Source of the DNA: a virus
Lineage: Duplodnaviria > Heunggongvirae > Uroviricota > Caudoviricetes
DNA: 13,543 bases
Virus record (IMG/VR): IMGVR_UViG_2698536485_000014
Strand: one strand, 5' to 3'
In this document: piece after piece, positions 1,133 to 13,318 of the stretch
Layout: each line of letters begins with the position of its first letter
Numbering within the stretch: the stretch's first letter is position 1
The notes under the pieces: generated by a model
What the model saw: the letters and a program-made list of their open reading frames with translations, nothing else
What the model was told of the DNA's origin: nothing
Database searches by the model: none
Program-made: the position numbers and the translations under genes

Positions 1133-1720
1133 ATGAACATTAAAACTATCATTGCAGTCATCACTATTGCCTTTAGTGCCAACACCGCAGCTATTGATGT
1201 AGGGGCCGTAAAAGATGCATCTTGTGCTGATAAACTGGCGGCACTTAATGCGGGATTCGATGCACCCCAGGGCTATCAAATGGGGCTATCTCTTAAAAAT
1301 ATTATTCTCCCTATGGAATCTGGCGCTTATGTATACGGAGCGATAGGAAAACTGGAGAAGCCGGAAATTGACCTGCAGGGTGTGAGAGCGAAGATCACAA
1401 AAAGAAATGAAAGCCTTTGTGATGTAGCTGAAATAGCTTTCATATCAGACGATGAAAAATCTATTTTAGCCTTTTGCAAAGATAGCGATGATAATGATCG
1501 CTTCTTTAAGATCACCCACAACAGGCCAATCTCTTTCTACTCTAATGCCACTATGGGCGCGGGTATGCAGTGGCTGAAGAGAGCTAAAGTAACTGAGATC
1601 GACATTGAAAAAGAGGCCAATGCAGGCAGTTATGGATTCTGGAAAGGCTGGACTAAATACACGTTCCAACAATGCGGCATCGATAGTCAGGCCTACGACA
1701 ACGGATTTTGGTTTTTCTAA
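1133..1720 (+). CDS. Secreted/periplasmic protein of unknown function (195 aa), moron-like
   Basis: N-terminus MNIKTIIAVITIAFSANTAA has a classic Sec signal peptide shape (basic residue, hydrophobic core, small-residue cleavage region). Four cysteines in the mature part; aromatic C-terminus (FWFF). GGGG Shine-Dalgarno at 1122-1125; terminator 22 nt downstream. Confidence 0.7.
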   Translation: MNIKTIIAVITIAFSANTAAIDVGAVKDASCADKLAALNAGFDAPQGYQMGLSLKNIILPMESGAYVYGAIGKLEKPEIDLQGVRAKITKRNESLCDVAEIAFISDDEKSILAFCKDSDDNDRFFKITHNRPISFYSNATMGAGMQWLKRAKVTEIDIEKEANAGSYGFWKGWTKYTFQQCGIDSQAYDNGFWFF

Positions 1721-1981: not shown

Positions 1982-2356
1982 TTAATAAGCCTTTTCTCTA
2001 TTTTTGTCAAATTTAACATACCCTCAAAAACTGCAAAATCTGGCTGCAAGATTATCTGCAGCTGGATTTCTTACACCTCATTTTGTGGTATCACCCTGAC
2101 TAGTTTGTGCATAAAATGAACAGTTTTTAACATTTCCTCTTCACCTGGTAACCACACAAAAAGCTAAAAACGAGGCACAGATAATCTTAGAGGCCTGTTT
2201 TCTTGTTATCACTCTGGAAACGTCGTAGAAGTGATTTTGATGAAAGATGACCTACCCTATTACACCCCCATTTTTTGTTATCACAATTGCATCCTGTGCG
2301 GTATATGGCTGTGTGCTGAAAGCGGTCTTGGGTGTGGGTGTCAGAAATATCCATTA

Positions 2357-2372
2357 GCGGTATTAATACCCG
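2357..2372. promoter_or_regulatory. Isolated palindrome GGTATTAATACC, related to the CGGTA...TACCG family
   Basis: Perfect 12-bp palindrome at 2359-2370 inside GCGGTATTAATACCCG, with the same half-sites as the array at 3300-3490 but a 1-nt shorter centre. Confidence 0.3.
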
Positions 2373-3157
2373 TCAGATGTTCGTCTGAGGTGCCAGGCAG
2401 GCGCTCCCCCACCTCCCTTTTTTCTTCTAACAATTCTCAAATATCACACCACTGCCCACCACGTTGCTATTATGTTAATTCTTAAGCTTTGCTGTATGTT
2501 GTGCACATTATTTATTCAGGTGCATGTACGTAAATTCTGGGCCTCCTTATCATGATTTTTAAATCAGATTTTGTAGTTCGGTTTCTTAGTGTAGATAAGA
2601 TCTATTATGTTAAATGCAATTTTCCCAACCCTTCAAATCAATGACTTACATGTAAGCATGCACTAACACCCCACACAGCACATTAGACGTGTAGATGTCT
2701 ATATCCCACATTTTTGATTGTTTTGTAGTCATTCCCCTGATCATTTAACCAGTATAGTTTGCTCTCTGCAGACCACAAAATCGGAATTTACATCTGATTA
2801 ACATAATCTGTTAGCATGATCACCATTACCCACACAACAATAACCCCATGCAAGCCTCTTTAGGCAATTTATCGGCGTGTTGGTGTGAACAGTCTTTCAT
2901 GTTCTTTATGTATTCATGACTGCAAGGAATGTATTCATTGTCCTGTGTGAGGGAAGGCTGGACTGCTCCAGGGGCCATAGTTATGATGCCCGGTCAACAT
3001 AGCTGTTGATAAAATCAACGGGTGTTGGCCTGCATATTTCCCACACATGAGAGGAAATCAAAGCAAAGAGAGAGGAGAGAGGTTTGCTAGACGATCAGGA
3101 CTATACAGAGTCAAAATCAAGTCACATTAGAGTCAAATCAGATGCAATCAATCCCCC

Positions 3158-3218
3158 ACCTGTTGGGATTTCCCACATGTTCAACCATACACAGGAGCTA
3201 ACCTGTTGGGATTTCCTA
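3158..3218. repeat. Two 18-bp direct repeats (ACCTGTTGGGATTTCCCA / ...CCTA)
   Basis: 3158-3175 and 3201-3218 match at 17 of 18 positions, 43 bp apart. Confidence 0.5.
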
Positions 3219-3235
3219 CACCTCTTGCACATACC

Positions 3236-3490
3236 CCGGAAGATTTTTCCGGTGTCTCCAACCTGTGAAGAATTTTCACACCTGTAAATCCATACAGCAC
3301 GGTAAAAACTACCGCACAACCTGTCAAAATATTTTACTACTCCCTTTAGTCATACCCCTTTCAGTCATACTCAGGCACCACACCCCGGTAAATATTACCG
3401 TACTCAGGCAGATATAAAGGGGCTAACCACGGCAAATATTTCCCTACTACCTCGGTAAATATTTCCGGTGTACCCCGGTAAAAATTACCG
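3236..3490. promoter_or_regulatory. Phased array of 15-bp palindromic sites (iteron/operator-like)
   Basis: CGGTAAAAACTACCG (3300-3314), CGGTAAATATTACCG (3386-3400), degenerate CGGCAAATATTTCCC (3430-3444), CGGTAAATATTTCCGG (3453-3468), CGGTAAAAATTACCG (3476-3490). Related palindromes CCGGAAGATTTTTCCGG (3236-3252) and GTGAAGAATTTTCAC (3265-3279). Centre-to-centre spacings are 86, 44, 23.5 and 22.5 bp, roughly multiples of two helical turns. Confidence 0.55.
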
Positions 3491-3519
3491 CCTAATAGAT
3501 AAAGTAATAGACCACACAA

Positions 3520-4060
3520 TAGATCCCCCCCTAACCCCCAAGGGGAATGGGGAGGGATCAGAGAGTGGGGAAGGTTTTCTAAGGGAAAAGCTTAACCCAC
3601 AAATGAAAGCCTAAAGAGCATGAGCGACTCTTTAGGCAATCTGTGTGTGGGGGGGGTGACAATGTATTCCATACATGACACGTCACCCAATTGTGTGTGG
3701 GAGTGCCTACGGCACCTTAGCCCATGGCTAAGCCCTTCGGGTCTGTGTGGGTCCGGCGAATGCGTCAGCATGAGGCCCACAATGTGGACCGCTGCCGAAA
3801 GCTTGCCAGCGCCGGAAGGAGGCAGCAAAGAGTCTCCCGCGCTCATGTGTGGGCGTATACGTAAGATATACACTCATAAATCGAAAATAAGCCCCCTAAA
3901 TGGCCTTCTGGCTGCATTAACCTGTGTGAGTAGTGAATTGCATTACCTGATGCTTAAATCGCGTTAGAATCGATTTTAGAGCGCTTAAGGCAAAAAGTGC
4001 CCTCCCTTGTGGGCTTGCTTGTGTCTGCTGTGCAGGCTATGGCACCTATAGCACACCTAA
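3520..4060. other. GC-rich, hairpin-dense non-coding segment; candidate structured RNA or protein-binding array
   Basis: No credible ORF. Perfect 10-bp stem GCCTAAAGAG/CTCTTTAGGC (3609-3637); nested hairpin 3654-3688; GTGCC-TAC-GGCAC (3703-3715); CTTAGCC-CAT-GGCTAAG; a C(TTCG)G tetraloop; GAAA loops. Boxes TGTGTGGG at 3643, 3692, 3744 and 3846, with degenerate copies at 3923 and 4007. Confidence 0.3.
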
Positions 4061-4076
4061 ATGATAATAATTCTCA

Positions 4077-4105
4077 TTGACAATTGGTTGACAATATGAT
4101 AAGAT
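4077..4105 (+). promoter_or_regulatory. Possible sigma70 promoter for the small membrane ORF
   Basis: TTGACA (4077-4082), 17-nt spacer, TAAGAT (4100-4105). A second TTGACA at 4088-4093 lacks a good -10. Confidence 0.3.
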
Positions 4106-4140
4106 TATAAATAGGGGGAGAAACAGATCCGGAGGTCAAT

Positions 4141-4290
4141 GTGGAAATTACAGATGCAATAGCGATCATCAACCTGGCTGTACTGTGGTGCGGTGTTGCC
4201 TACATAGCCGGAGTAACTGCAATCGACAATCTTGAAGAAAAAATGATAGATAAATACAAAAAGATTGTTGACAATTTGACGAATGTCTGA
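4141..4290 (+). CDS. Small membrane protein (49 aa, GTG start), hypothetical
   Basis: GGAGG Shine-Dalgarno at 4131-4135, 5 nt before GTG 4141. The product VEITDAIAIINLAVLWCGVAYIAGVTAIDNLEEKMIDKYKKIVDNLTNV contains one predicted transmembrane helix. Not in the ORF track because it is under 60 aa. Confidence 0.3.
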   Translation: MEITDAIAIINLAVLWCGVAYIAGVTAIDNLEEKMIDKYKKIVDNLTNV

Positions 4291-4296
4291 TAAAAT
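4268..4296 (+). promoter_or_regulatory. sigma70-type promoter upstream of the plus-strand gene module
   Basis: TTGACA (4268-4273), 17-nt spacer, TAAAAT (4291-4296). Predicted start near 4303, about 120 nt before ATG 4423. Confidence 0.5.
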
Positions 4297-4422
4297 ATAA
4301 AGCATAGGGTAATTCTCATCATAGTGAATTTCCTTTAGTAGACTGGCGGGGGCTTGTCTTAAGTTCCCGTTTCTTTTTAACCATATATCGCACAGGTTAG
4401 TGAGCTGACAGGAGATTGAATC

Positions 4423-4638
4423 ATGGCTAAAACCGGACCGATAAGCCAGCTAGTAAACTGGACTACTGACGAAATCGTCGAGAACGTGCTTAAAGGTAAC
4501 TTTCGAAAAACTTCCGTTTATGCATTTATTCGTAAACACAAAGGAGAATATCCACACATTGAAGCGGCAATTTTAGAACTGAACCGTCTCCGCATCGAGC
4601 GTGAGCTGGCTAAATACACCAACAACATTAATAAATAA
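4423..4638 (+). CDS. Small basic protein (71 aa), possible regulator
   Basis: AGGAG Shine-Dalgarno 8 nt before ATG 4423. First gene of a compact co-directional cluster. No recognisable family by eye. Confidence 0.55.
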   Translation: MAKTGPISQLVNWTTDEIVENVLKGNFRKTSVYAFIRKHKGEYPHIEAAILELNRLRIERELAKYTNNINK

Positions 4639-4651
4639 TTATGGGGGAACT

Positions 4652-5518
4652 ATGGCAAACAACTATGGGGAAAATTTTACTCCCCTTTTTAAACGTTTCA
4701 TCAAATACATTTTTAAAAATCCGATTGCAAAAACTACAACCAATAAAGAAAGATTTCACTTAAATTTGTTGGAAATGGCAATTTACGGTGAAATGGCAAG
4801 TTTCCATTTAAACGGTAAAGAAATATTTATCTCTGAGCAAACCTTAGCAGATGATTATGATGCCACAGAAAAAACAGTAAGGTCGGCTATCAAAACATTA
4901 GAGGCTGCAGGACTAATATTTGTAAAACGGAGCAGAGGTAAGTCTAATCATTACAAACTACTTATTACTCCTGATCAGCTTGGCAAGATGTGTGATGAGC
5001 AGGGTATTAAAACCTCCGCAAGTGTGGGATACAGCAAAGAGGCCTCCGATAATCAACAGGAAGCCCCAAAACAAGCCACACAGCAGCCTGAAAAGCCCGA
5101 GGCAATGCAATCCCCTTCCCAACCTAAAAAAGAACGCAGAGAACGCCGTAGAGACGCTGGCAAACGTGAAATAGATGAGCACGGTTATCCGATTCTGACA
5201 AGCGATGAAATGAATGCTAGATATAAAGTAATTCAGGCCGCATTTAAAGATCAGAAGAGAATTAAATTATCTGAATTGCGTGATACATTTTACGGGCCGG
5301 AGGTGATGGATAAAATTAAAGGCACTATTCCCGATAAAATCTGGAAAGAGAAAGATTATTGGCACCTGACAGAGCAGGCCCTTAAGGTGGCTCAACATGT
5401 GGTTAAAAGAGGCAAAACAATTACCCTTGATTCTATTAGTCATGGCTATGATGCACCGAAAGAAAGATTGTGGAACAACTGCAAGCTTGTAAATGGTGAA
5501 TTGACAATTACAAAATAA
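4652..5518 (+). CDS. Winged-helix DNA-binding protein (289 aa), possible replication initiator or organiser
   Basis: GGGGGA Shine-Dalgarno before ATG 4652; the track ORF 4601..5518 begins at an upstream GTG with no Shine-Dalgarno. N-terminal wHTH-like segment (ISEQTLADDYDATEKTVRSAIKTLEAAGLIFVKRSRGK), a low-complexity Q/P/E/K-rich linker, then a C-terminal domain. Architecture resembles iteron-binding initiators such as lambda O; this is an inference. Confidence 0.6.
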   Translation: MANNYGENFTPLFKRFIKYIFKNPIAKTTTNKERFHLNLLEMAIYGEMASFHLNGKEIFISEQTLADDYDATEKTVRSAIKTLEAAGLIFVKRSRGKSNHYKLLITPDQLGKMCDEQGIKTSASVGYSKEASDNQQEAPKQATQQPEKPEAMQSPSQPKKERRERRRDAGKREIDEHGYPILTSDEMNARYKVIQAAFKDQKRIKLSELRDTFYGPEVMDKIKGTIPDKIWKEKDYWHLTEQALKVAQHVVKRGKTITLDSISHGYDAPKERLWNNCKLVNGELTITK

Positions 5519-5557: not shown

Positions 5558-5704
5558 ATGTATGGCGATTTTGATTATTACCTGGAAAAGGAAAAATATT
5601 TTGAAGATGAACTATCACAACATTTTTCATATTGGGAAGAATATTGTGGTTGGTTAGCTGAAGATCCAGCAGATGAAGAAAATGATTCTGACATCCCTTA
5701 TTAA
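5558..5704 (+). CDS. Small acidic protein (48 aa), hypothetical
   Basis: AAGGAA Shine-Dalgarno before ATG 5558. Product MYGDFDYYLEKEKYFEDELSQHFSYWEEYCGWLAEDPADEENDSDIPY is strongly acidic and aromatic. Below the ORF-track size cut-off. Confidence 0.35.
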   Translation: MYGDFDYYLEKEKYFEDELSQHFSYWEEYCGWLAEDPADEENDSDIPY

Positions 5705-5808: not shown

Positions 5809-6294
5809 ATGTTCAAATCTGATCTTTCTGATTCCCAATTTGAAAAACTGGTAGCACTGCAGAAATATCTCCCCAGTGATGATCAACCAACACGACAGGC
5901 TAAGCACTTATTAGTCGAGGGCTTTACCCCTGAATTCGTGGCGGAATACACAGGCGTTAAACTTGAGAAAGTCCAAAAACTATATAATGAGTCCTGGAAT
6001 CCACGGTGTAGAGTTCCCCTCAGTGTCTACAACGAAATAGATAGAGATAGAAATGTCTTCGAAGATCGCCGCCGCAAATCTCTTTTAATGTGGAATTGCG
6101 GGATGAATATTGAAGAGATAGCAAAAGAATTAAAAGTAACCTGCTTTCATATCTGGGGCTTGTTGAGTGAAATCCTGCCACGTAAGGAGCTTAATCAACG
6201 TTTGCCTAAGCCCGGTAGTCGTGCTTATCGCGAATTTATATTCATCTACCGCCGCCATAGCAATAAAGTCCGGAAAGCAATGCAGCGCAAATAG
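5809..6294 (+). CDS. Hypothetical protein (161 aa) with two HTH-like segments
   Basis: GGAG Shine-Dalgarno before ATG 5809; the track start 5791 is a TTG. Segments FTPEFVAEYTGVKLEKVQKLY and GMNIEEIAKELKVTCFHIWGLL look like helix-turn-helix motifs. Basic C-terminus. Confidence 0.55.
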   Translation: MFKSDLSDSQFEKLVALQKYLPSDDQPTRQAKHLLVEGFTPEFVAEYTGVKLEKVQKLYNESWNPRCRVPLSVYNEIDRDRNVFEDRRRKSLLMWNCGMNIEEIAKELKVTCFHIWGLLSEILPRKELNQRLPKPGSRAYREFIFIYRRHSNKVRKAMQRK

Positions 6295-6336: not shown

Positions 6337-6352
6337 CCGGTAAATATGCCGG
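6337..6352. promoter_or_regulatory. Extra copy of the palindromic operator (CCGGTAAATATGCCGG)
   Basis: Same CGGTAAATAT core as the array at 3300-3490, placed 31 nt upstream of ATG 6383 in the gap between two genes. Confidence 0.4.
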
Positions 6353-7270: not shown

Positions 7271-7507
7271 ATGAACACCTACGAAAAGATTTATCAAAAA
7301 CTGGTTAAGGACTCCGAAGAGACGCCCGAAGGGGTGACAATAGGTCACCTACCAGAGGCAGCGAAAGAGGGGTCCACCATTATTAAAAGTGGCACCCACA
7401 CAGAAGGCCTCTCAATCGAAGAGCTGGCGGAGAAATATAATATTGATAAAGAGGCCCTGAAAAGGGCTATTTCATTATCAAAATCTTTAAGACAGGGTGA
7501 GGTATAA
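7271..7507 (+). CDS. Hypothetical protein (78 aa)
   Basis: ATG 7271 lies 1 nt after the upstream TGA. The gene ends 1 nt before the tape-measure start, so the three genes are tightly packed. Confidence 0.5.
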   Translation: MNTYEKIYQKLVKDSEETPEGVTIGHLPEAAKEGSTIIKSGTHTEGLSIEELAEKYNIDKEALKRAISLSKSLRQGEV

Positions 7508-7508
7508 A

Positions 7509-9608
7509 ATGGCAATGAAGGAAGTAGCCAAACTAACAAACGTTATTTACTGGGATTCTGATAAATCCTCCTGGCGAAAAGAAGTTAAACGGCTTGAGGA
7601 TTATAAAAAATCCTGGAAGAAAGCTACCGACGATATAGCTAAAGCGGATTTTAAATCGAATCAGGCTGTGCTCAGAACACAAAGAACACGCGCTAAGGTG
7701 GAAGAGCAGATCGCCAGAGCACAGAAGAAACAACGTGCTCAGGCTGTCAGCCGTCTGACCGGGGGCAATAATCCGGAGCTCTCCTCTATGCGCAAGTTCT
7801 ATCAGCAGCAAGCCAGAGAGGCCGCCAGACAACAAAAACTGTTAGATCGTAGTGTTGGAGATGTTCAGCACAGAAAAGCACGTGTAGGGGCCAACAGTGC
7901 ACGAATCAGCAGCATGTTTGATGGCTCCCTGGTTGCTCAGTTCCAAAGCAGGATCCAGAGAGTTAATGCTGATTATGCTAAAGGGGCTATCAACCTGCAG
8001 GCCTATAATCAGAAAATGGCTCGGCTCAGGGCTGAAATGAAGATGGCAACAGCAGAGGCCGGAAAATTTCAGAGCAGACTGGATAAACTGGCATCAGGTG
8101 CCAGCAAGGTGCATGACAACCTGGGCAAAATCAACTCCACACTAGGCAAGATAGCCATTGGCCTTACTGCCGCTGGCTGGGGTGTTCAGCGTGCTGTTAG
8201 TGGTGCTATGGGTAGCCTTGCAGATCGCAACAGTGCCTACTTCGGTTTGATGGCACAGAACAAGGATGATAAAGCCAAGACTGATCAGCAGATGGCTTTT
8301 ATCAAGAACACAGCCTACACCTATGGGATGGATGAGCGGGAGATGCAAGGGGGCTACATGCGCTTTGCTGCAGCTACTCCCACCATGAAGGAATCTGATA
8401 AGCAGGCTCTTTTTGAGGCTATGGCTATTAAAGGTCGCTCAGTGGGTGCTACTGGCGAGCAACAGAACAGGGCGCTTGTTGCGGTCCAACAAATGGCTTC
8501 AAAGGGAAAAGTTATGGCGGAAGAGCTGCGGGGCCAACTGTCAGAAGCCTTTGCAGGCTCACAACAGGATTTTCAACAGGCCGCTATTGATGCCGGAATC
8601 ATCAAGAATACCCAGGAATTCGATAAAGCCCTTAAAGATGGCAAAATCACCCTGGATAAGCTACTCCCTTCTTTGGTGAAAATCTGGTCTGCAGCCAAGA
8701 ATACGAAAGCCTTTGCTGAATCCATGAAACAGCCAGAAGTAGCAATGCAGCGCATGAAAAACAGCTTTAACGAGCTGGCGATTCAGTTTATGGGTGTTGT
8801 GGATCCTGCGGATGGCGTTATTAGCTTATCTGAATCTCTGATCTCCATCTTTGAAGACCTCACCACTGATATGGACGGCAGCGGGAGCGCGGCAAAACAG
8901 TTCGGTGAGGCAGTCGGGGCTGCCATGCGTGAGATCATGTATTGGGTAGGCTTCGCTAAGGGATATATTGAGGTCAAGGCTAAAGAGTTCGGCATGACCG
9001 GATCAGAGGTTGGCGAGCTTATCGGAAAATTGGTAGTCGGCTTAGCTGGTCTGAAAGTTATTACTACACTGCTTTCCCCTCTAACCGGATTTGTTTCACT
9101 TGTCACCCAACTGATAGCTTTGTTAGGTAAAATCCCTGGTATGAGCAAGCTTCTGGCTTCTGCCTCAGGTGGAACGGCAACAGGAGCAGCGGTCATCAGT
9201 GCAGGCTCTAACGCTGAAAGAAGTTTCATTGATGGCAAGACGCAGGAAATGAGTAAGGAGAACTCAAAACAGGGTGCTTTGTTTGAGCTGGGAAGATTTG
9301 TTAGCAATGCTGGCGCACTGTTCACACCTGGCGGTGATACTGGTCCTTTGTTCGATCAGGTCAGAGGCTGGTTTAATAAAGGGCCAACATTGACAGTAGA
9401 CACTGGCATCAGACCTACACCAACAGGCGGCATAGCTATCCAGAATGGTGGATATCAACCAGTCCAAGTAAATGTAGCCCCACAAGGTGAGATTTCCGGC
9501 AAATGGGAGATAACCATTGATGAGGGTGGAATTGCCAGGGTGATCCAGAAGGAAGTCAGCGATCAGTTGGATTGGAAAGCCACACAGGAATCTAACCAGC
9601 TTTTCTAA
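7509..9608 (+). CDS. Tail tape-measure-domain protein (699 aa)
   Basis: GGTGAGG Shine-Dalgarno 6 nt before ATG 7509; the track start 7497 is a GTG. Coiled-coil, Q/R/K-rich N-terminus. Central segment ...QQMASKGKVMAEELRGQLSEAFAGS...KALKDGKITLDKLLPSL... matches my recollection of the conserved tape-measure domain motif. Hydrophobic segments (LIGKLVVGLAGLKVITTLLSPLTGFVSLVTQLIALLG) and a Gly-rich C-terminus are also typical. Confidence 0.6.
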   Translation: MAMKEVAKLTNVIYWDSDKSSWRKEVKRLEDYKKSWKKATDDIAKADFKSNQAVLRTQRTRAKVEEQIARAQKKQRAQAVSRLTGGNNPELSSMRKFYQQQAREAARQQKLLDRSVGDVQHRKARVGANSARISSMFDGSLVAQFQSRIQRVNADYAKGAINLQAYNQKMARLRAEMKMATAEAGKFQSRLDKLASGASKVHDNLGKINSTLGKIAIGLTAAGWGVQRAVSGAMGSLADRNSAYFGLMAQNKDDKAKTDQQMAFIKNTAYTYGMDEREMQGGYMRFAAATPTMKESDKQALFEAMAIKGRSVGATGEQQNRALVAVQQMASKGKVMAEELRGQLSEAFAGSQQDFQQAAIDAGIIKNTQEFDKALKDGKITLDKLLPSLVKIWSAAKNTKAFAESMKQPEVAMQRMKNSFNELAIQFMGVVDPADGVISLSESLISIFEDLTTDMDGSGSAAKQFGEAVGAAMREIMYWVGFAKGYIEVKAKEFGMTGSEVGELIGKLVVGLAGLKVITTLLSPLTGFVSLVTQLIALLGKIPGMSKLLASASGGTATGAAVISAGSNAERSFIDGKTQEMSKENSKQGALFELGRFVSNAGALFTPGGDTGPLFDQVRGWFNKGPTLTVDTGIRPTPTGGIAIQNGGYQPVQVNVAPQGEISGKWEITIDEGGIARVIQKEVSDQLDWKATQESNQLF

Positions 9609-10108: not shown

Positions 10109-10567
10109 TCAGCCTCTCCCAACATTTGACCAGTATTTGATTGCACCGATCAAATCATCATAGTGGCGCATTGCATCATTGAAGCCTTTATAGCTTGCCC
10201 ATTGTGGGGAGACTTTGTTATTGCTGAATTGCCCACTAATCAGGATAGTCTCCAAAATGTCGGCGTATCGCTTGCCAATTCGCTTTCTGACGGCCTCAGA
10301 GCTTCCACCCTTTACGATTGCATTAATCAGGGCTTTTGTGTGTCTCAGGCTCTCATAGAGCATTGCAGCGTGGGCAGATTCCATAAAGGAGCGCTTAGGC
10401 AGATCACCCCACCCCTCAGAGTGGATAGCTGCCAGTGTGGCGTAATTCAGGCCGCTATAGTGCTTTCCGTCATCCCAGCCAACCGCTACACCTTCCATCT
10501 GTGAGAGCTCTTTATGCAGCTTATCCATCATGCGCTTGTCTATGGTGCAACGGACTTTCGGACTCAT
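10109..10567 (-). CDS. Hypothetical protein (152 aa), possibly virion morphogenesis-associated
   Basis: GGAG Shine-Dalgarno 8 nt before the minus-strand ATG at 10567. The start overlaps the upstream gene stop as ATGA (10564-10567). Function assigned by position only. Confidence 0.55.
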   Translation of the reverse strand: MSPKVRCTIDKRMMDKLHKELSQMEGVAVGWDDGKHYSGLNYATLAAIHSEGWGDLPKRSFMESAHAAMLYESLRHTKALINAIVKGGSSEAVRKRIGKRYADILETILISGQFSNNKVSPQWASYKGFNDAMRHYDDLIGAIKYWSNVGRG

Positions 10568-11367
10568 TTGTTGATCTCCGTGATGTCATCGAGCAACATG
10601 TTGGCCTTATCAATCATCGTTTCGTGGAACTCATTCGACACAACAGACTTATCACCTGCGGCAATCTTTCCCGCTGCCTCTCCCTGTGCATATTCCCCGC
10701 GATGCTTAGCCCTGGTTGATTTCGTAGCAGCATTGCCAGCGTTACTACCCTCTTTAGCACTGTTAACAGCACCCTTTTGCTGTGTTTTATTCACCTTCTT
10801 ACTGTTAGTGAAAACTCCGGCATTTTCGACCATCTTCACCTTGAAGGTGCGGAATTCTTCAAAAGTGCAATCAATAGTGATGCAGTCACCGGAGGAAGAG
10901 CTACGCTTAACTTCACATTTCGTCATGATGAAGTTCTCAAGAAGTCCGGCATCTTCACTCACCAGGCTAACCAGCTGGCGCTTGTCTCTCATTTCCATAA
11001 GAGCACGCACAGCGGCGGCGGGGCGCATGGATTCAAGGGGATTATCTGGATCAGTGTTCCGGTCGATGTAGTTCTCTTTCCGGATAATGTGAGGGGAAGA
11101 GGTAATAATGCCCGTAAAGCTGACAGATTTATCTTTAATGACGGCATGGTCTGACATGGTGGTGCCATCCTCGACCGCATAGCTCGATTTCTCAACAGGG
11201 AACGAATAGCTGACATCAGAGATAGAGTCAAAGAAGATAGCCACATTATCGGTATAGTTGAAGCCATCCATCATATTTTTGTTTTGTGAATATCCCCCAC
11301 ACATAACAGTGAATGCAGGAGATCTCGACTCAGCTTGTTTTGCAGCTGTCAGAGCATCACTAGCCAT
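10564..11367 (-). CDS. Hypothetical protein (about 268 aa), Ser/Thr/Val-rich with low-complexity C-terminus
   Basis: Preferred start is ATG at 11367, with GGAGG 10 nt upstream. The alternatives are ATG 11376 (too close to the Shine-Dalgarno) and the track TTG at 11421. The composition suggests a beta-rich structural protein; this is an inference. Confidence 0.55.
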   Translation of the reverse strand: MASDALTAAKQAESRSPAFTVMCGGYSQNKNMMDGFNYTDNVAIFFDSISDVSYSFPVEKSSYAVEDGTTMSDHAVIKDKSVSFTGIITSSPHIIRKENYIDRNTDPDNPLESMRPAAAVRALMEMRDKRQLVSLVSEDAGLLENFIMTKCEVKRSSSSGDCITIDCTFEEFRTFKVKMVENAGVFTNSKKVNKTQQKGAVNSAKEGSNAGNAATKSTRAKHRGEYAQGEAAGKIAAGDKSVVSNEFHETMIDKANMLLDDITEINK

Positions 11368-11561
11368 AGTAAACATGCCTCCAAATTGGTCCACTTCATG
11401 GATTTGGCTAAACTCGTGCAAATAGCCCTCGTCTTGAGGGTGTTAAAGCCAAACCTGCAAAAGATGCAGGCAAAATAGAACTTATCGTTGCCCTGCTTAA
11501 AATCTGCAGAAAATACAGGGCAGTTATTCGTTAGAATCGCTTATAGCTCTTCCCGAGAGCG

Positions 11562-11813
11562 TTATTTTGCAAAACGATTATGGGCATTCAGGGCTTTTTT
11601 GCGGTCCTGGGCTTGTTTGCGTGCAATAAAATGTTCGAAAGTCTCGGCCCAGGTGCATTTATTATATTCACGGTATTTATGCATAGCCTGGCGGCTAACG
11701 TCATAGCAGGCGGCAAATGTGGAGATACGCAGGAATTCCGGCAGATCCTCGTCATCGATATGGATAATATCAAAAGGCACGTCGTCACGGTCGCCGTATA
11801 AAACAATTTTCAT
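11562..11813 (-). CDS. Small acidic protein (83 aa) with possible HTH
   Basis: GAGGTG Shine-Dalgarno 8 nt before ATG 11813; the track start 11822 is a GTG. Contains the segment CYDVSRQAMHKYREY. Sits just downstream of the capsid terminator. Confidence 0.45.
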   Translation of the reverse strand: MKIVLYGDRDDVPFDIIHIDDEDLPEFLRISTFAACYDVSRQAMHKYREYNKCTWAETFEHFIARKQAQDRKKALNAHNRFAK

Positions 11814-11845
11814 AAAAGACACCTCAAAAAACTTAAGACGGGGAT

Positions 11846-11910
11846 AATAAAAAAGGGAAGAGGGAAAGACCTATCCCCGATCTCTCACCTCTTCCCTTTG
11901 CTTTTATTTG
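11846..11910 (-). terminator. Terminator/attenuator after the major capsid gene, possibly bidirectional
   Basis: Stem AAAGGGAAGAGG (11852-11863) pairs with CCTCTTCCCTTT (11888-11899) around a 24-nt loop. The minus-strand transcript is followed by TTTATTAT; the plus strand is followed by GCTTTTATTT. Confidence 0.5.
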
Positions 11911-11927
11911 GCCTTCGAAGAAGGACC

Positions 11928-12971
11928 TTATTTAGCCTTGGCTTTTGCCAGAGCGGCGGCGGAGTTACTAACACTCACTTTAATCACAACTTCAGGCATC
12001 ATGTTCATGAAAGCATAAGAGGATTCAATGAAGATTTCTCGTTTACCTCTGGACTCTTCCATATACATGAAAGCTTCACGTGCAGCGCCGTTTGCAAGCT
12101 TCAGGTTGCGAGCGCAAGGGCCGAAAAATTGAGTATAAACGCCCACCATATCGCCTAACGCATGCGGCTGGAACTGTGGGACCAGATAAGCAGTATTCTC
12201 TGGCAGACTATCCATTTGCACCACACGCAGAGCTAAGCCCGGAATGCGGAAGGTCGGGAAGCCCGGCAGAATATCCTCAGGGAACATCAGACCTTTGTCG
12301 GTAATATTCTGATTGCCGAACAACAGCACTTTTCTCAACAGTTCATCAGTCTGAATTGCAGCAAAGAGTTCAGCACGGCAGAACAGGGTGAAACCACGCA
12401 GAGCGCGAACAACACCACGCTGTTTAACCTTGCTCAGTGCAACCAGGTCCTGCAGCTGTTTAAGGATATCTTTAGCTAAATCCACTTCGGAAGTAGTTTG
12501 TTGTGCGCCCAGCAGTTCGCACACATTCAGTTCTTTACCCTTGGTGAGGATAATTTTGTTCTCAAAGAGAGCAAGCTGGCGTGCTTCTTCGTGGGTCTGG
12601 CGTAAGCCTTCGCCAAGCTGAATGACACGACGAGCGGTTACAGACTCTAAATTCTCTTCGGAATCTTTGCCCGGAACACGGATACCCTGCCAGTCAGAAG
12701 GATAAATAGCACTTGATGCGGCAGTGAATGCCATATCACCCGTGCCCGTTTCACGCTCATCTGCGGTAATGGTCGCCATCTGTTCACCGTAGCGCGGATA
12801 CTGACCGAAAGCGGTTTGTTTCACCTGGCGAACTTTGTCATATTCAAATTTAAAGGTATTGCACAGAGCAGTAGTGTTGAAGATATCCATTGCTGAAATA
12901 ATCTGGTTATCCAGCGGGATGTCTTTAATCAGACCACACAGATCGCGAACTTCGAATTCTTTCTTAGCCAT
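11928..12971 (-). CDS. Major capsid protein, lambda gpE-like family (about 347 aa)
   Basis: AAGGAGG Shine-Dalgarno 6 nt before ATG 12971; the track start 12977 is a TTG. Size matches gpE-type capsid proteins. N-terminal FKFEYD and C-terminal PEVVIKVSV segments resemble lambda E as I recall it. It follows a decoration-size gene by 11 nt and is followed by a strong terminator. Confidence 0.6.
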   Translation of the reverse strand: MAKKEFEVRDLCGLIKDIPLDNQIISAMDIFNTTALCNTFKFEYDKVRQVKQTAFGQYPRYGEQMATITADERETGTGDMAFTAASSAIYPSDWQGIRVPGKDSEENLESVTARRVIQLGEGLRQTHEEARQLALFENKIILTKGKELNVCELLGAQQTTSEVDLAKDILKQLQDLVALSKVKQRGVVRALRGFTLFCRAELFAAIQTDELLRKVLLFGNQNITDKGLMFPEDILPGFPTFRIPGLALRVVQMDSLPENTAYLVPQFQPHALGDMVGVYTQFFGPCARNLKLANGAAREAFMYMEESRGKREIFIESSYAFMNMMPEVVIKVSVSNSAAALAKAKAK

Positions 12972-12982
12972 CTTCAACCTCC

Positions 12983-13318
12983 TTATTGTGCAACACGCAA
13001 ATCGCCATTGCTGGCAGCGATAACAGCGGCTAAGCCGTCTTTATCCACGTAGGCCGGATTGATATAACAGCCTTTGTTGGCAACAACGATAAAAGCGTCA
13101 CCAACCTCAGCACGTTCTACAACCAGCAGCGGAGTTTTACCGGTGTGTGTTTCTTTAACGAAGGTCTCAACCTCGCCAGCCTCAGTCACCACAACAACAG
13201 TGCCAGCCGGAATCTCAGCTTTAACTTTGTTTTTAATTTCAACGTCGCGAATACTAAATTGCTCATCTGCGGCGTATGAAATGATGTGTCCGCGTGTGCG
13301 GATAGTCATATCTTTCAT
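12983..13318 (-). CDS. Head decoration-like protein (111 aa)
   Basis: AGGTGA Shine-Dalgarno before ATG 13318. Small Val/Ala/Glu-rich product directly upstream of the capsid gene, in the gpD-gpE arrangement. Its stop codon overlaps the capsid Shine-Dalgarno. Call is by position and size only. Confidence 0.45.
   Translation of the reverse strand: MKDMTIRTRGHIISYAADEQFSIRDVEIKNKVKAEIPAGTVVVVTEAGEVETFVKETHTGKTPLLVVERAEVGDAFIVVANKGCYINPAYVDKDGLAAVIAASNGDLRVAQ

What the first reader, a model, noticed from the sequence alone, without database searches (positions are those of the whole stretch)
3236..3490. Phased array of CGGTAAAWATTACCG palindromes, likely binding sites for a dimeric DNA-binding protein
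There are four exact matches to the 10-mer CGGTAAA[A/T]AT in the array and a fifth at 6338, against a chance expectation well under 0.1. Sites are spaced at about 22-bp multiples, so they sit on one face of the helix, as in plasmid or phage origins, partition centromeres or operator arrays. The 6337-6352 copy upstream of the 147-aa gene suggests the same protein also regulates inside the module. Candidate binders are the HTH proteins at 4652, 5809 or 815.
Basis: seen in the sequence. Interest (0 to 1): 0.6.

Follow-up and report, generated by a model that had tools for sequence, protein, structure and literature searches.

The report
Replication-origin iterons matched to plasmid initiator
The palindrome array is most likely the replication origin of a common but undescribed 13.5-kb phage-like E. 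coli plasmid, made of four fixed-position sites for the plasmid's own initiator protein, an ordinary kind of feature that comes here in about eight naturally swapped protein/site versions.

Summary
CGGTAAAWAT occurs exactly three times in the array and once at 6338. The full 15-mer CGGTAAAWATTWCCG, with up to 2 mismatches, has five sites, all within 3300-3490 (chance expectation 0.07).

The window is a whole ~13.5-kb circular E. coli plasmid carrying phage-like genes. I compared 35 related plasmids and contigs. The four sites nearest a conserved AT-rich flank always lie 8.5, 31.5, 54.5 and 98 bp from it. Their sequence switches among seven or eight classes.

Each class matches one version of the recognition helix in the winged-helix protein at 4652-5518. 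That protein resembles phage replication initiators. The match held in eight blind predictions, whatever the protein's C-terminal allele and despite 98-100% conserved DNA between array and gene. The proteins at 815 and 5809 barely vary, so they do not set the specificity. The 6338 copy is a half-site that does not follow the initiator class.

Best reading: a lambda-ori-like iteron origin, analogous to oriλ but not homologous to it. Binding and origin activity are inferred, not shown. This is a new member of a known kind. Interest is moderate, mainly for the natural allelic series and the uncharacterised plasmid family.

The parts
3386..3400 (+). Proximal iteron 4, CGGTAAATATTACCG (perfect dyad CGGTAA-ATA-TTACCG). 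Its centre is 98.5 bp from the conserved flank.
   Evidence: The position is conserved in all relatives while the sequence switches by class.
3430..3444 (+). Proximal iteron 3, CGGCAAATATTTCCC (2 mismatches). Its centre is 54.5 bp from the flank.
   Evidence: A site occupies the same position in the other classes.
3453..3467 (+). Proximal iteron 2, CGGTAAATATTTCCG. Its centre is 31.5 bp from the flank.
3476..3490 (+). Proximal iteron 1, CGGTAAAAATTACCG. Its centre is 8.5 bp from the flank.
3492..3528 (.). Conserved AT-rich flank made of three tandem 12-mers: TAATAGATAAAG, TAATAGACCACA and CAATAGATCCCC. It is the candidate DNA-unwinding element.
   Evidence: It is conserved in every class. Its duplex stability is in the least-stable 5% of the plasmid but is not the extreme. 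The unwinding role is inferred.
3525..3548 (.). GC-rich palindrome (CCCCCCCTAACCCCCAAGGGGAAT) just beyond the AT-rich flank.
   Evidence: One search reports it as a hairpin. It is conserved in relatives. Its position matches, from my own recollection, that of the palindrome to the right of oriλ.
3158..3337 (.). Distal part of the cassette, with single palindromes of other specificity classes: 3161-3177 and 3204-3220 TGTTGGGATTTCCYACA, 3236-3252 CCGGAAGATTTTTCCGG, 3265-3279 GTGAAGAATTTTCAC, 3300-3314 CGGTAAAAACTACCG, and 3320-3337 CCTGTCAAAATATTTTAC.
   Evidence: These sites are shared among plasmids regardless of initiator class, and partly look like leftovers of recombination inside the arrays.
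4652..5518 (+). Initiator (Rep) gene, 288 aa. It has an N-terminal winged helix-turn-helix (recognition helix residues 73-85), a disordered linker (121-171) and a C-terminal domain.
   Evidence: Pfam HTH_36 is above its cut-off. PHROG replication-initiation families score down to E = 3e-12. The recognition helix co-varies with the iterons.

Best explanation
The array is the iteron block of the plasmid's vegetative replication origin.

The working core is four sites at 3386-3490. Each is a 15-17 bp near-perfect dyad set inside a roughly 23-bp directional repeat. Dimers of the plasmid's own initiator (288 aa, 4652-5518) would bind each site through the recognition helix of its N-terminal winged helix-turn-helix domain.

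Four bound dimers at fixed spacing would form a nucleoprotein complex. That complex would strain and open the adjacent conserved AT-rich triple 12-mer (3492-3528). The C-terminal domain, joined by a flexible linker, would then recruit host replication proteins. This is how lambda O works at oriλ.

The upstream palindromes (3158-3337) are related sites of other specificity classes. They are mostly leftovers of recombination between arrays.

What is shown: the sites exist, their geometry is conserved, and their sequence co-varies with the initiator's recognition helix. What is inferred: physical binding, dimer stoichiometry, unwinding at the AT-rich flank, and origin activity.
For: 1. The sites are highly non-random and confined to one block.

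2. The window is a whole ~13.5-kb circular, non-mobilizable E. coli plasmid. Only one encoded protein resembles a replication initiator. The 4652 protein hits PHROG replication-initiation, O-like and DnaD-like families (E = 3e-12 to 1e-9) and Pfam HTH_36 (28.5 bits, cut-off 25).

3. In all 10 complete plasmids the array is a hypervariable cassette between conserved flanks. The four proximal sites sit at 8.5, 31.5, 54.5 and 97.5-98.5 bp from CTAATAGATAAA whatever their sequence.

4. Site sequence falls into 7-8 classes, each tied to one recognition-helix motif:
- TEKTVRS goes with CGGTAAATATTACCG.
- TPKTVRT goes with CGGTAAAATTTACCG.
- SDRKIRD goes with CGGAAGATTTCTCCG.
- SDRKIIE goes with CTGAAGATTTCTCAC.
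- DRGKIVS goes with TGTTGGAATTTCCCACA.
- DRGKIAS goes with TGCTGGAATTTCCCGCA.
- SRPT(V/I)I goes with CTGTAAAATATTTTAC.

5. Array identity correlates with identity of the N-terminal domain (Mantel r = 0.58, p = 0.0002). It barely correlates with the C-terminal domain (r = 0.15, p = 0.035).

6. The array and the gene are separate islands of divergence. DNA between them (4100-4500) is 98-100% conserved, and another variable island (3600-4000) assorts independently.

7. Eight further initiator variants were chosen only by helix motif, and all had the predicted array. They included a helix/wing chimera and all three C-terminal alleles. In total 34 loci agree.

8. The other HTH proteins are nearly invariant.

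9. The AlphaFold model places the variable residues at the start of helix 3 of a winged helix. Residues 121-171 are disordered and a folded C-terminal domain follows. Lambda O has the same domain plan (PMC6022878).

10. OriLambda has four 18-bp dyad iterons spaced 20, 24 and 23 bp, next to an AT-rich stretch. That is the same geometry.

11. The cumulative GC skew minimum falls in the 3201-3600 window.

12. In CP020521 the initiator is replaced by an unrelated one. There, a second set of three repeats (ATCAAYATATCAAnnTGATATA) plus an AT-rich stretch is inserted about 90 bp downstream of the old array.
Against: - No binding or replication experiment exists. All the evidence is comparative.
- CP020521 keeps a class-A array with a foreign initiator. 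An array can therefore persist without its cognate protein, perhaps because the swap is recent.
- The AT-rich flank is only at the 95th percentile of duplex instability, not the weakest point of the plasmid.
- There are no DnaA boxes near the array. That fits lambda but not most iteron plasmids.
- The GC skew minimum is confounded by gene orientation.
- The initiator shows no detectable sequence homology to lambda O (hhalign probability 0.1%). It has no significant PDB relative by sequence.
- Structural matches are generic winged-helix proteins. Plasmid RepA_N-type initiators and DnaD appear among them at weak E-values.
- Many of the 34 concordant loci are close relatives, so the number of independent events is nearer the number of helix-class by C-terminal-allele combinations, about 15.
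Confidence: 0.75

Rival explanations
1. The sites are an operator array. The winged-helix protein at 4652 would be a transcriptional repressor or activator, GntR/MarR-like, and the sites would control transcription across the 2.7-kb non-coding region rather than start replication.
For: The N-terminal domain looks like GntR/MarR-type regulators by sequence and by fold. NCBI names relatives as HTH, GntR or MarR regulators. Co-variation shows binding specificity, not what the binding does.
Against: No sigma-70-like promoter overlaps the array. The strong promoter-like sites lie at 4077-4105 and 4268-4296, more than 580 bp away, and carry no cognate site. Four fixed-geometry sites abutting a conserved AT-rich repeat is origin-like. 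PHROG hits are almost all replication-initiation families. No other encoded protein resembles an initiator, so this reading leaves the plasmid's replication unexplained. Diversification into about eight specificities on a near-identical backbone fits pressure from incompatibility.
Confidence: 0.1
2. The sites are a centromere-like or packaging-recognition site. The array would be a partition site, or a cosB/pac-like site, bound by the winged-helix protein acting as a centromere-binding or small-terminase-like adaptor. That could matter if this phage-like plasmid is packaged by a helper phage.
For: The plasmid carries capsid-like and tail-like genes and may be a phage satellite. From my own knowledge, lambda Nu1 is a winged-helix protein that binds repeated sites in cosB. 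TubR, a winged-helix centromere binder, appears among the fold matches. There is a weak sequence hit to the PICI packaging protein RppC (E = 0.21).
Against: No ParA, ParM or TubZ-type NTPase and no terminase was found among the encoded proteins. No terminase or partition PHROG appears among the 16 hits of the protein. The RppC and TubR matches are not significant and are confined to the generic HTH.
Confidence: 0.07
3. The sites are bound by one of the other HTH proteins named by the reader: the 86-aa HTH_7 protein at 815, or the 161-aa protein at 5809.
For: Both have weak HTH matches and are encoded on the same plasmid.
Against: They are 92-99% and 96-99% identical across plasmids whose proximal sites share only 30-60% of positions, and their few differences do not follow array class. 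A protein that does not change cannot account for seven or eight mutually different site sequences.
Confidence: 0.03

Closest known systems
Bacteriophage lambda origin (oriλ) with the O initiator
   Same: Both have four dyad-symmetric sites of 15-18 bp, with GC-rich arms and an A/T-rich centre, as direct repeats about 20-24 bp apart. Both sit directly next to an AT-rich stretch. Both initiators are about 290-300 aa, with an N-terminal DNA-binding domain, a flexible linker and a C-terminal recruiting domain, and O binds each site as a dimer (PMC6022878; model). Neither origin has DnaA boxes. From my own knowledge, among lambdoid phages iteron sequence and the O N-terminal domain change together.
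   Different: There is no detectable sequence homology to lambda O (hhalign probability 0.1%) and no hit to a Pfam O-protein family. The array lies 1.1-1.8 kb upstream of the gene rather than inside it, with conserved DNA in between. No P-like helicase loader is encoded. There is a one-site gap (43-44 bp) between sites 3 and 4.
Iteron origins of theta-replicating plasmids (F, P1, R6K, pPS10, RK2)
   Same: A plasmid-encoded winged-helix initiator binds an array of repeats of about 22-bp period next to an AT-rich region. Specificity differences define incompatibility. This comparison rests on my own knowledge of these systems.
   Different: Those initiators have two winged-helix domains and bind asymmetric iterons as monomers, and their origins usually carry DnaA boxes. 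Here each site is a dyad, the protein has a single winged-helix domain, and there is no DnaA box.
RepA_N-family initiators of staphylococcal plasmids and the DnaD N-terminal domain (PDB 4pql, 4pt7, 5kbj, 2v79)
   Same: These are among the best structural matches of the N-terminal domain and are dimeric winged-helix initiator domains. PHROG 'DnaD-like helicase loader' families also hit the protein.
   Different: The matches are weak (Foldseek E = 3e-3 to 4e-2, 13-16% identity) and are interleaved with MarR and ArsR regulators. The C-terminal domain has no structural match.
SaPI/PICI satellite replicons (Rep plus an iteron origin with island-specific matching)
   Same: These are small phage-related elements whose initiator and iterons are specifically matched and differ between otherwise related elements. 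This comparison rests on my own knowledge.
   Different: SaPI Rep is a helicase-initiator that binds short hexamer repeats flanking an AT-rich region. The protein here has no helicase domain and the sites are 15-17 bp dyads.

Membership tests
Iteron-type replication origin (general) | Several initiator-binding repeats of about 15-22 bp at roughly two-turn spacing | tested here: met
   There are five class-A sites. The four proximal ones are spaced 44, 23 and 23 bp. Expected by chance: 0.07.
Iteron-type replication origin (general) | The element's own initiator recognises the repeats | tested here: met
   Tested indirectly. The recognition-helix motif and the site class agree in 34 of 34 loci, in 8 of 8 predictions, and across three C-terminal alleles. 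Physical binding cannot be tested with these tools.
Iteron-type replication origin (general) | An adjacent AT-rich DNA-unwinding element | tested here: inconclusive
   A conserved triple 12-mer at 3492-3528 has about 27% G+C and is at the 95th percentile of duplex instability, but it is not the least stable site.
Iteron-type replication origin (general) | It supports autonomous replication and exerts incompatibility when cloned | not testable with these tools
   This needs a mini-replicon and incompatibility assays.
Iteron-type replication origin (general) | DnaA boxes in or beside the origin (typical of plasmid iteron origins) | tested here: not met
   TTWTNCACA occurs only at 103 and 2106, matching chance expectation, and not near the array.
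Lambda O / oriλ family | Four dyad-symmetric iterons at about 20-24 bp spacing next to an AT-rich region | tested here: met
   Lambda iterons lie at 39034, 39054, 39078 and 39101. Here the spacings are 23, 23 and 44 bp.
Lambda O / oriλ family | The initiator is homologous to lambda O | tested here: not met
   A profile of 26 family members compared with lambda O gave probability 0.1% and E = 0.6. No Pfam O-protein family matched at E <= 0.01. Only the looser PHROG 'O-like' families hit.
Lambda O / oriλ family | The origin lies inside the initiator gene | tested here: not met
   The array ends 1.0-1.8 kb upstream of the open frame that holds the gene (1,162 bp upstream of its ATG in the window) in all relatives.
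Lambda O / oriλ family | A partner P-like helicase loader is encoded next to the initiator | tested here: not met
   The downstream genes are a 48-aa acidic protein and proteins with no replication-family hit.
Winged helix-turn-helix, Pfam HTH_36 / GntR-like | Score above the curated Pfam threshold | tested here: met
   HTH_36 scores 28.5 bits against a cut-off of 25. GntR scores 24.5 against 27, below its cut-off. The model shows the order helix-strand-helix-helix-strand-strand.
Plasmid partition centromere (parS/parC/tubC type) | A partner segregation NTPase (ParA, ParM or TubZ) on the same replicon | tested here: not met
   No such family appears among the Pfam, PHROG or NCBIfam hits of the plasmid's proteins.

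The most novel reading that the evidence does not exclude
The array may be more than one origin. The distal sites would be kept on purpose as single binding sites for the initiators of rival specificity classes. Examples are a perfect class-A site in class-K and class-P plasmids, and class-T and class-J sites in class-A plasmids. Each plasmid could then titrate or 'handcuff' the initiators of competing relatives. The eight-fold diversification of helix and site would record an incompatibility arms race within a widespread, undescribed family of plasmid-borne phage satellites. The neighbouring array of three-hairpin modules ending in CTGTGTGGG would be a new kind of priming or RNA signal belonging to the same origin.
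Probability: 0.12. Interest if true: 0.75.

Novelty: new member of a known kind. Interest (0 to 1): 0.45.

Why it matters
It assigns an origin and an initiator to a plasmid family found in well over a thousand E. coli, Shigella and E. albertii assemblies. Annotation pipelines currently leave that family as 'hypothetical' or 'HTH domain' proteins, with no replicon type.

The family also offers a ready-made natural experiment in protein-DNA recognition. About eight recognition-helix variants are paired with eight site variants at identical geometry on a near-identical backbone. Some pairs differ by one or two residues and one or two bases: RD to IE goes with CGG..CCG to CTG..CAC, and V to A goes with TGTTGG to TGCTGG. 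These pairs give directly testable rules for winged-helix specificity and for plasmid incompatibility typing.

It does not reveal a new principle of replication.

Tried and rejected
- Phage database, DNA search of the whole window: no match.
- tblastn of the initiator against phages: no match.
- Viral-contig scan with the initiator: nothing confirmed.
- Genome-contig scan with the 161-aa protein: only spurious Alkalihalobacterium hits.
- Rfam at gathering and at E-value thresholds, and a tRNA scan: nothing relevant.
- PDB sequence search of the initiator: nothing significant.
- Literature searches for the plasmid family, its protein accessions, satellite plasmids and G4-type priming signals: nothing on this family.
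- DnaA boxes at the origin: none.
- The 6338 copy as a regulatory site of the same protein: rejected, because it does not follow initiator class.
- The 71-aa protein upstream of the initiator as the specificity determinant: rejected. It is 98.6% identical in classes A, J and P.
- The wing of the winged helix as the determinant of the outer bases: rejected. P0070 has the class-J helix with the class-P wing and carries class-J sites. L027 has the class-T helix with a different wing and carries class-T sites.
- Simple physical linkage as the cause of the co-variation: judged unlikely, because conserved and independently assorting segments lie between array and gene.

Full report
**The observation.** The region 3158-3490 is packed with short AT-centred palindromes. 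That is four matches against 0.07 expected, and none of 200 shuffles reached four. The array therefore holds three exact copies, not four. The full 15-mer CGGTAAAWATTWCCG with up to two mismatches finds five sites (3300, 3386, 3430, 3453, 3476), all within the array, again against 0.07 expected. Centre spacings are 86, 44, 23 and 23 bp. The copy at 6338 matches only the left half (CGGTAAATATGCCGG). To the left of the class-A sites lie related but different palindromes: TGTTGGGATTTCCYACA twice, CCGGAAGATTTTTCCGG, GTGAAGAATTTTCAC and CCTGTCAAAATATTTTAC.

**What the window is.** Megablast against plasmids shows that the window is an entire ~13.5-kb circular, non-mobilizable E. coli plasmid. Five PLSDB records cover 81-97% of it at 91-96% identity, and one 39.6-kb record is a trimer. 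More copies occur in RefSeq E. coli genomes, always on plasmids.

The plasmid encodes these proteins on the plus strand:
- an 86-aa HTH_7 protein;
- a variable 195-aa protein;
- after about 2.4 kb with no conserved ORF, a 49-aa, a 71-aa, a 288-aa winged-helix and a 48-aa acidic protein;
- 161-, 147-, 129- and 78-aa proteins;
- a 703-aa tape-measure-like protein.

On the other strand it encodes a tail-completion-like protein, a 285-aa protein 48% identical to the 'tail tube initiator' of rV5-like phages, a major-capsid-like protein and small proteins.

The 288-aa protein is the only one resembling a replication initiator. It matches Pfam HTH_36 above its cut-off and 16 PHROG families, 12 of them labelled replication initiation, O-like, DnaD-like or primosomal; the other four have no known function (best E = 3e-12). 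The 48-aa marker protein is indexed in 1,762 blocks of the assembly collection, 1,421 of which have their longest contig at 10-20 kb, so the family is common. I found no paper describing it.

**Comparative anatomy of the array.** I aligned the non-coding region of ten complete plasmids. The array is a hypervariable cassette between conserved flanks...GAGAGGTTTG on the left and CTAATAGATAAAG... on the right. In every plasmid, palindromic sites are centred 8.5, 31.5, 54.5 and 97.5-98.5 bp upstream of the right flank, but their sequence differs between plasmids:
- CGGTAAAWATTWCCG in the window, AP045055, CP043822 and CP020521;
- CGGAAGATTTCTCCG in JBUCKS;
- CTGARGATTTCTCAC in CP148565;
- CTGTMAAAATATTTTAC in CP178698;
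- TGTTGGAATTTCCCACA in CP035869 and CP074841;
- CGGTAAAAWTTACCG-like in CP134895.

Parts of the spacers between sites, such as ACTACTAC, are shared across classes. It is therefore the sites themselves that have been exchanged. Sites further left (more than 110 bp from the flank) are a mixture of classes, shared among plasmids irrespective of their proximal class.

**Which protein goes with the sites.** Among all plasmid proteins, the 288-aa protein is by far the most variable, at 40-99% identity, and it is replaced altogether in CP020521.

The 288-aa protein is modular. It has a variable N-terminal domain, a conserved QEAPKQATQQ linker and at least three C-terminal alleles. The ten residues at the start of the predicted recognition helix fall into eight motifs, and each goes with one site class. 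Similar motifs go with similar sites: TEKTVRS and TPKTVRT, SDRKIRD and SDRKIIE, DRGKIVS and DRGKIAS.

CP035869 and CP074841 share the helix and the sites but carry different C-terminal alleles. L032 is only 70% identical to CP178698 in the N-terminal domain, yet it shares SRPT at the helix start and has the same sites.

Over 21 elements, identity of the proximal 112 bp correlates with N-terminal identity (Mantel r = 0.58, p = 0.0002). It barely correlates with C-terminal identity (r = 0.15, p = 0.035). A sliding-identity profile shows that the array and the gene are separate islands of divergence. DNA between them is 98-100% conserved at 4100-4500, and a third island at 3600-4000 assorts independently. 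Between the window and CP178698, the gene differs essentially only at 4800-4999, the helix-turn-helix segment. Simple linkage therefore does not explain the association.

**A predictive test.** A homology search returned 103 clusters (at 90% identity) of this protein. Almost all have their longest contig at 13.3-14.4 kb, and every source name given is E. coli, Shigella or E. albertii. They carry only about eight recognition-helix motifs, shuffled with the C-terminal alleles. I picked eight variants by helix motif alone and fetched their contigs. All had the predicted array:
- P0070 has the class-J helix with the class-P wing, and has class-J sites.
- P0026 and P0063 have class-K sites.
- P0073 has class-P sites.
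- P0075 and P0098 have the CGGTAAAATTTACCG class.
- P0078 has the TGCTGG class.
- P0055 has class-J sites.

In all, 34 loci agree. The one exception is CP020521. It keeps a class-A array, but its initiator is unrelated on both sides of the shared linker. It also has an extra insertion about 90 bp beyond the old array, holding three ATCAAYATATCAAnnTGATATA repeats and an AT-rich stretch. That insertion is a plausible cognate origin for the foreign protein.

**Structure.** An AlphaFold model built on 26 family members gave mean pLDDT 68, with 76-88 in the HTH region. It shows a winged helix in the order helix-strand-helix-helix-strand-strand. [quoted passage not shown] Residues 121-171 are disordered and a folded C-terminal domain follows. 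Foldseek against the PDB returns only generic winged-helix proteins. Staphylococcal plasmid RepA N-domains (4pql, 4pt7, 5kbj) and the DnaD N-domain (2v79) are among them at weak E-values. Nothing matches the C-terminal domain.

**Why an origin.** The four fixed sites abut a conserved AT-rich stretch made of three tandem 12-mers (3493-3528), followed by a GC-rich palindrome. This matches oriλ, which has four 18-bp dyad iterons at 39034, 39054, 39078 and 39101 joined to a 38-bp AT-rich sequence. Lambda O binds each iteron as a dimer and stresses the AT-rich DNA. O has an N-terminal DNA-binding domain, a flexible linker and a C-terminal domain that recruits P (PMC3349717; PMC6022878).

The cumulative GC skew reaches its minimum in the 3201-3600 window, although gene orientation confounds this. 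Two cautions apply. The AT-rich flank is only in the least-stable 5% of the plasmid. There are no DnaA boxes nearby.

The resemblance to lambda is functional and architectural, not evolutionary. A profile of the family against lambda O gives probability 0.1%. The array lies 1.0-1.8 kb upstream of the gene rather than inside it. No P-like loader is encoded.

**The 6338 copy.** Its presence follows the allele of the intergenic region between the 161-aa and 147-aa genes, not the initiator class. It is unchanged in class-T plasmids and in CP020521. It is split by a 37-bp insertion in three plasmids. It is absent from JBUCKS, CP148565 and CP134895. I do not count it as part of the system.

**Rivals.** An operator array is possible, because co-variation proves specificity and not function. 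However, no promoter overlaps the sites, and the promoter-like sites at 4077-4105 and 4268-4296 carry no cognate site. A partition or packaging site lacks any partner NTPase or terminase. Binding by the invariant HTH proteins cannot explain eight different site sequences.

**Verdict.** The finding is real. It is best read as the iteron block of the plasmid's replication origin, recognised by the initiator at 4652-5518. It is a new member of a known kind and works like oriλ/O without being homologous to it. Its main value is the natural allelic series of matched helix and site variants, and the assignment of a replicon to a common, undescribed phage-like plasmid family.

Noticed in passing
window 3596-3856 (and the same region in L001-L048): There is an array of structured modules, each ending in (C)TGTGTGGG. 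A fixed first module is followed by one to three small modules whose type, number and order differ between plasmids (window K-Q-P-E, L019 K-M-O-P-E, and so on; 44 distinct module strings in 20 loci). Four module types share a three-hairpin design. Over six variants all 17 pairs form, 13 show compensatory double changes, and there are no G-U pairs. RNA folding z-scores are -4.2 and -4.3 on the two strands. There is no Rfam match. From memory this recalls G4-type single-strand priming signals (three hairpins plus a CTG), but that was not tested.
   Followed up: partly
window 5558-5704: A 48-aa acidic protein just downstream of the initiator ends in ...ENDSDIPY, which resembles the C-terminal tip of E. 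coli SSB (from memory...DDDIPF). It carries the same protein accession in most of the complete plasmids. In CP020521, which has no recognisable copy of this gene, the foreign initiator itself ends in ...DSAIPY.
   Followed up: no
whole window; 7497-9608, 10109-13318: The plasmid carries tape-measure-like, tail-completion-like, 'tail tube initiator'-like (48% identical to rV5-like phages such as FV3 and JohannBauhin) and major-capsid-like genes, but no terminase, portal or tail tube. It may be a plasmid-borne satellite of, or interferer with, Vequintavirinae phages. I found no description of it in the literature.
   Followed up: partly
window 2000-2900: About 900 bp is 89-100% identical per 100-bp window (mostly 95% or more) in all ten complete plasmids. 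No ORF is annotated there in any record and there is no RNA-family hit. The function is unknown.
   Followed up: no
window 6338-6352 and relatives: The palindromic TCCGGTAAATATGCCGGA between the 161-aa and 147-aa genes is interrupted in CP178698, CP074841 and CP043822 by a 37-bp insertion flanked by a direct repeat of GTAAATAT. Three other plasmids carry a different allele of this intergenic region.
   Followed up: partly
L008 / CP020521, rotated coordinates 3125-3300: A plasmid of this family has an unrelated initiator, annotated as MarR family, joined at the shared QEAPKQ linker. It also has an inserted second repeat set (ATCAAYATATCAAnnTGATATA, three copies) with an AT-rich stretch, while keeping the old class-A array. 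This looks like a natural replicon swap.
   Followed up: partly
L011 (NZ_CP043822), L026, L030: One record is a 39.6-kb trimer of the unit, with deletions in one copy. Two other copies sit on larger contigs (79 kb and 353 kb) beside a beta-lactamase gene, and one of them also beside a DDE transposase gene. L030 has lost the array.
   Followed up: no
window 1133-1720: The 195-aa protein, which has a hydrophobic N-terminus, exists in at least two unrelated alleles among otherwise near-identical plasmids. This is another independently assorting variable island.
   Followed up: no
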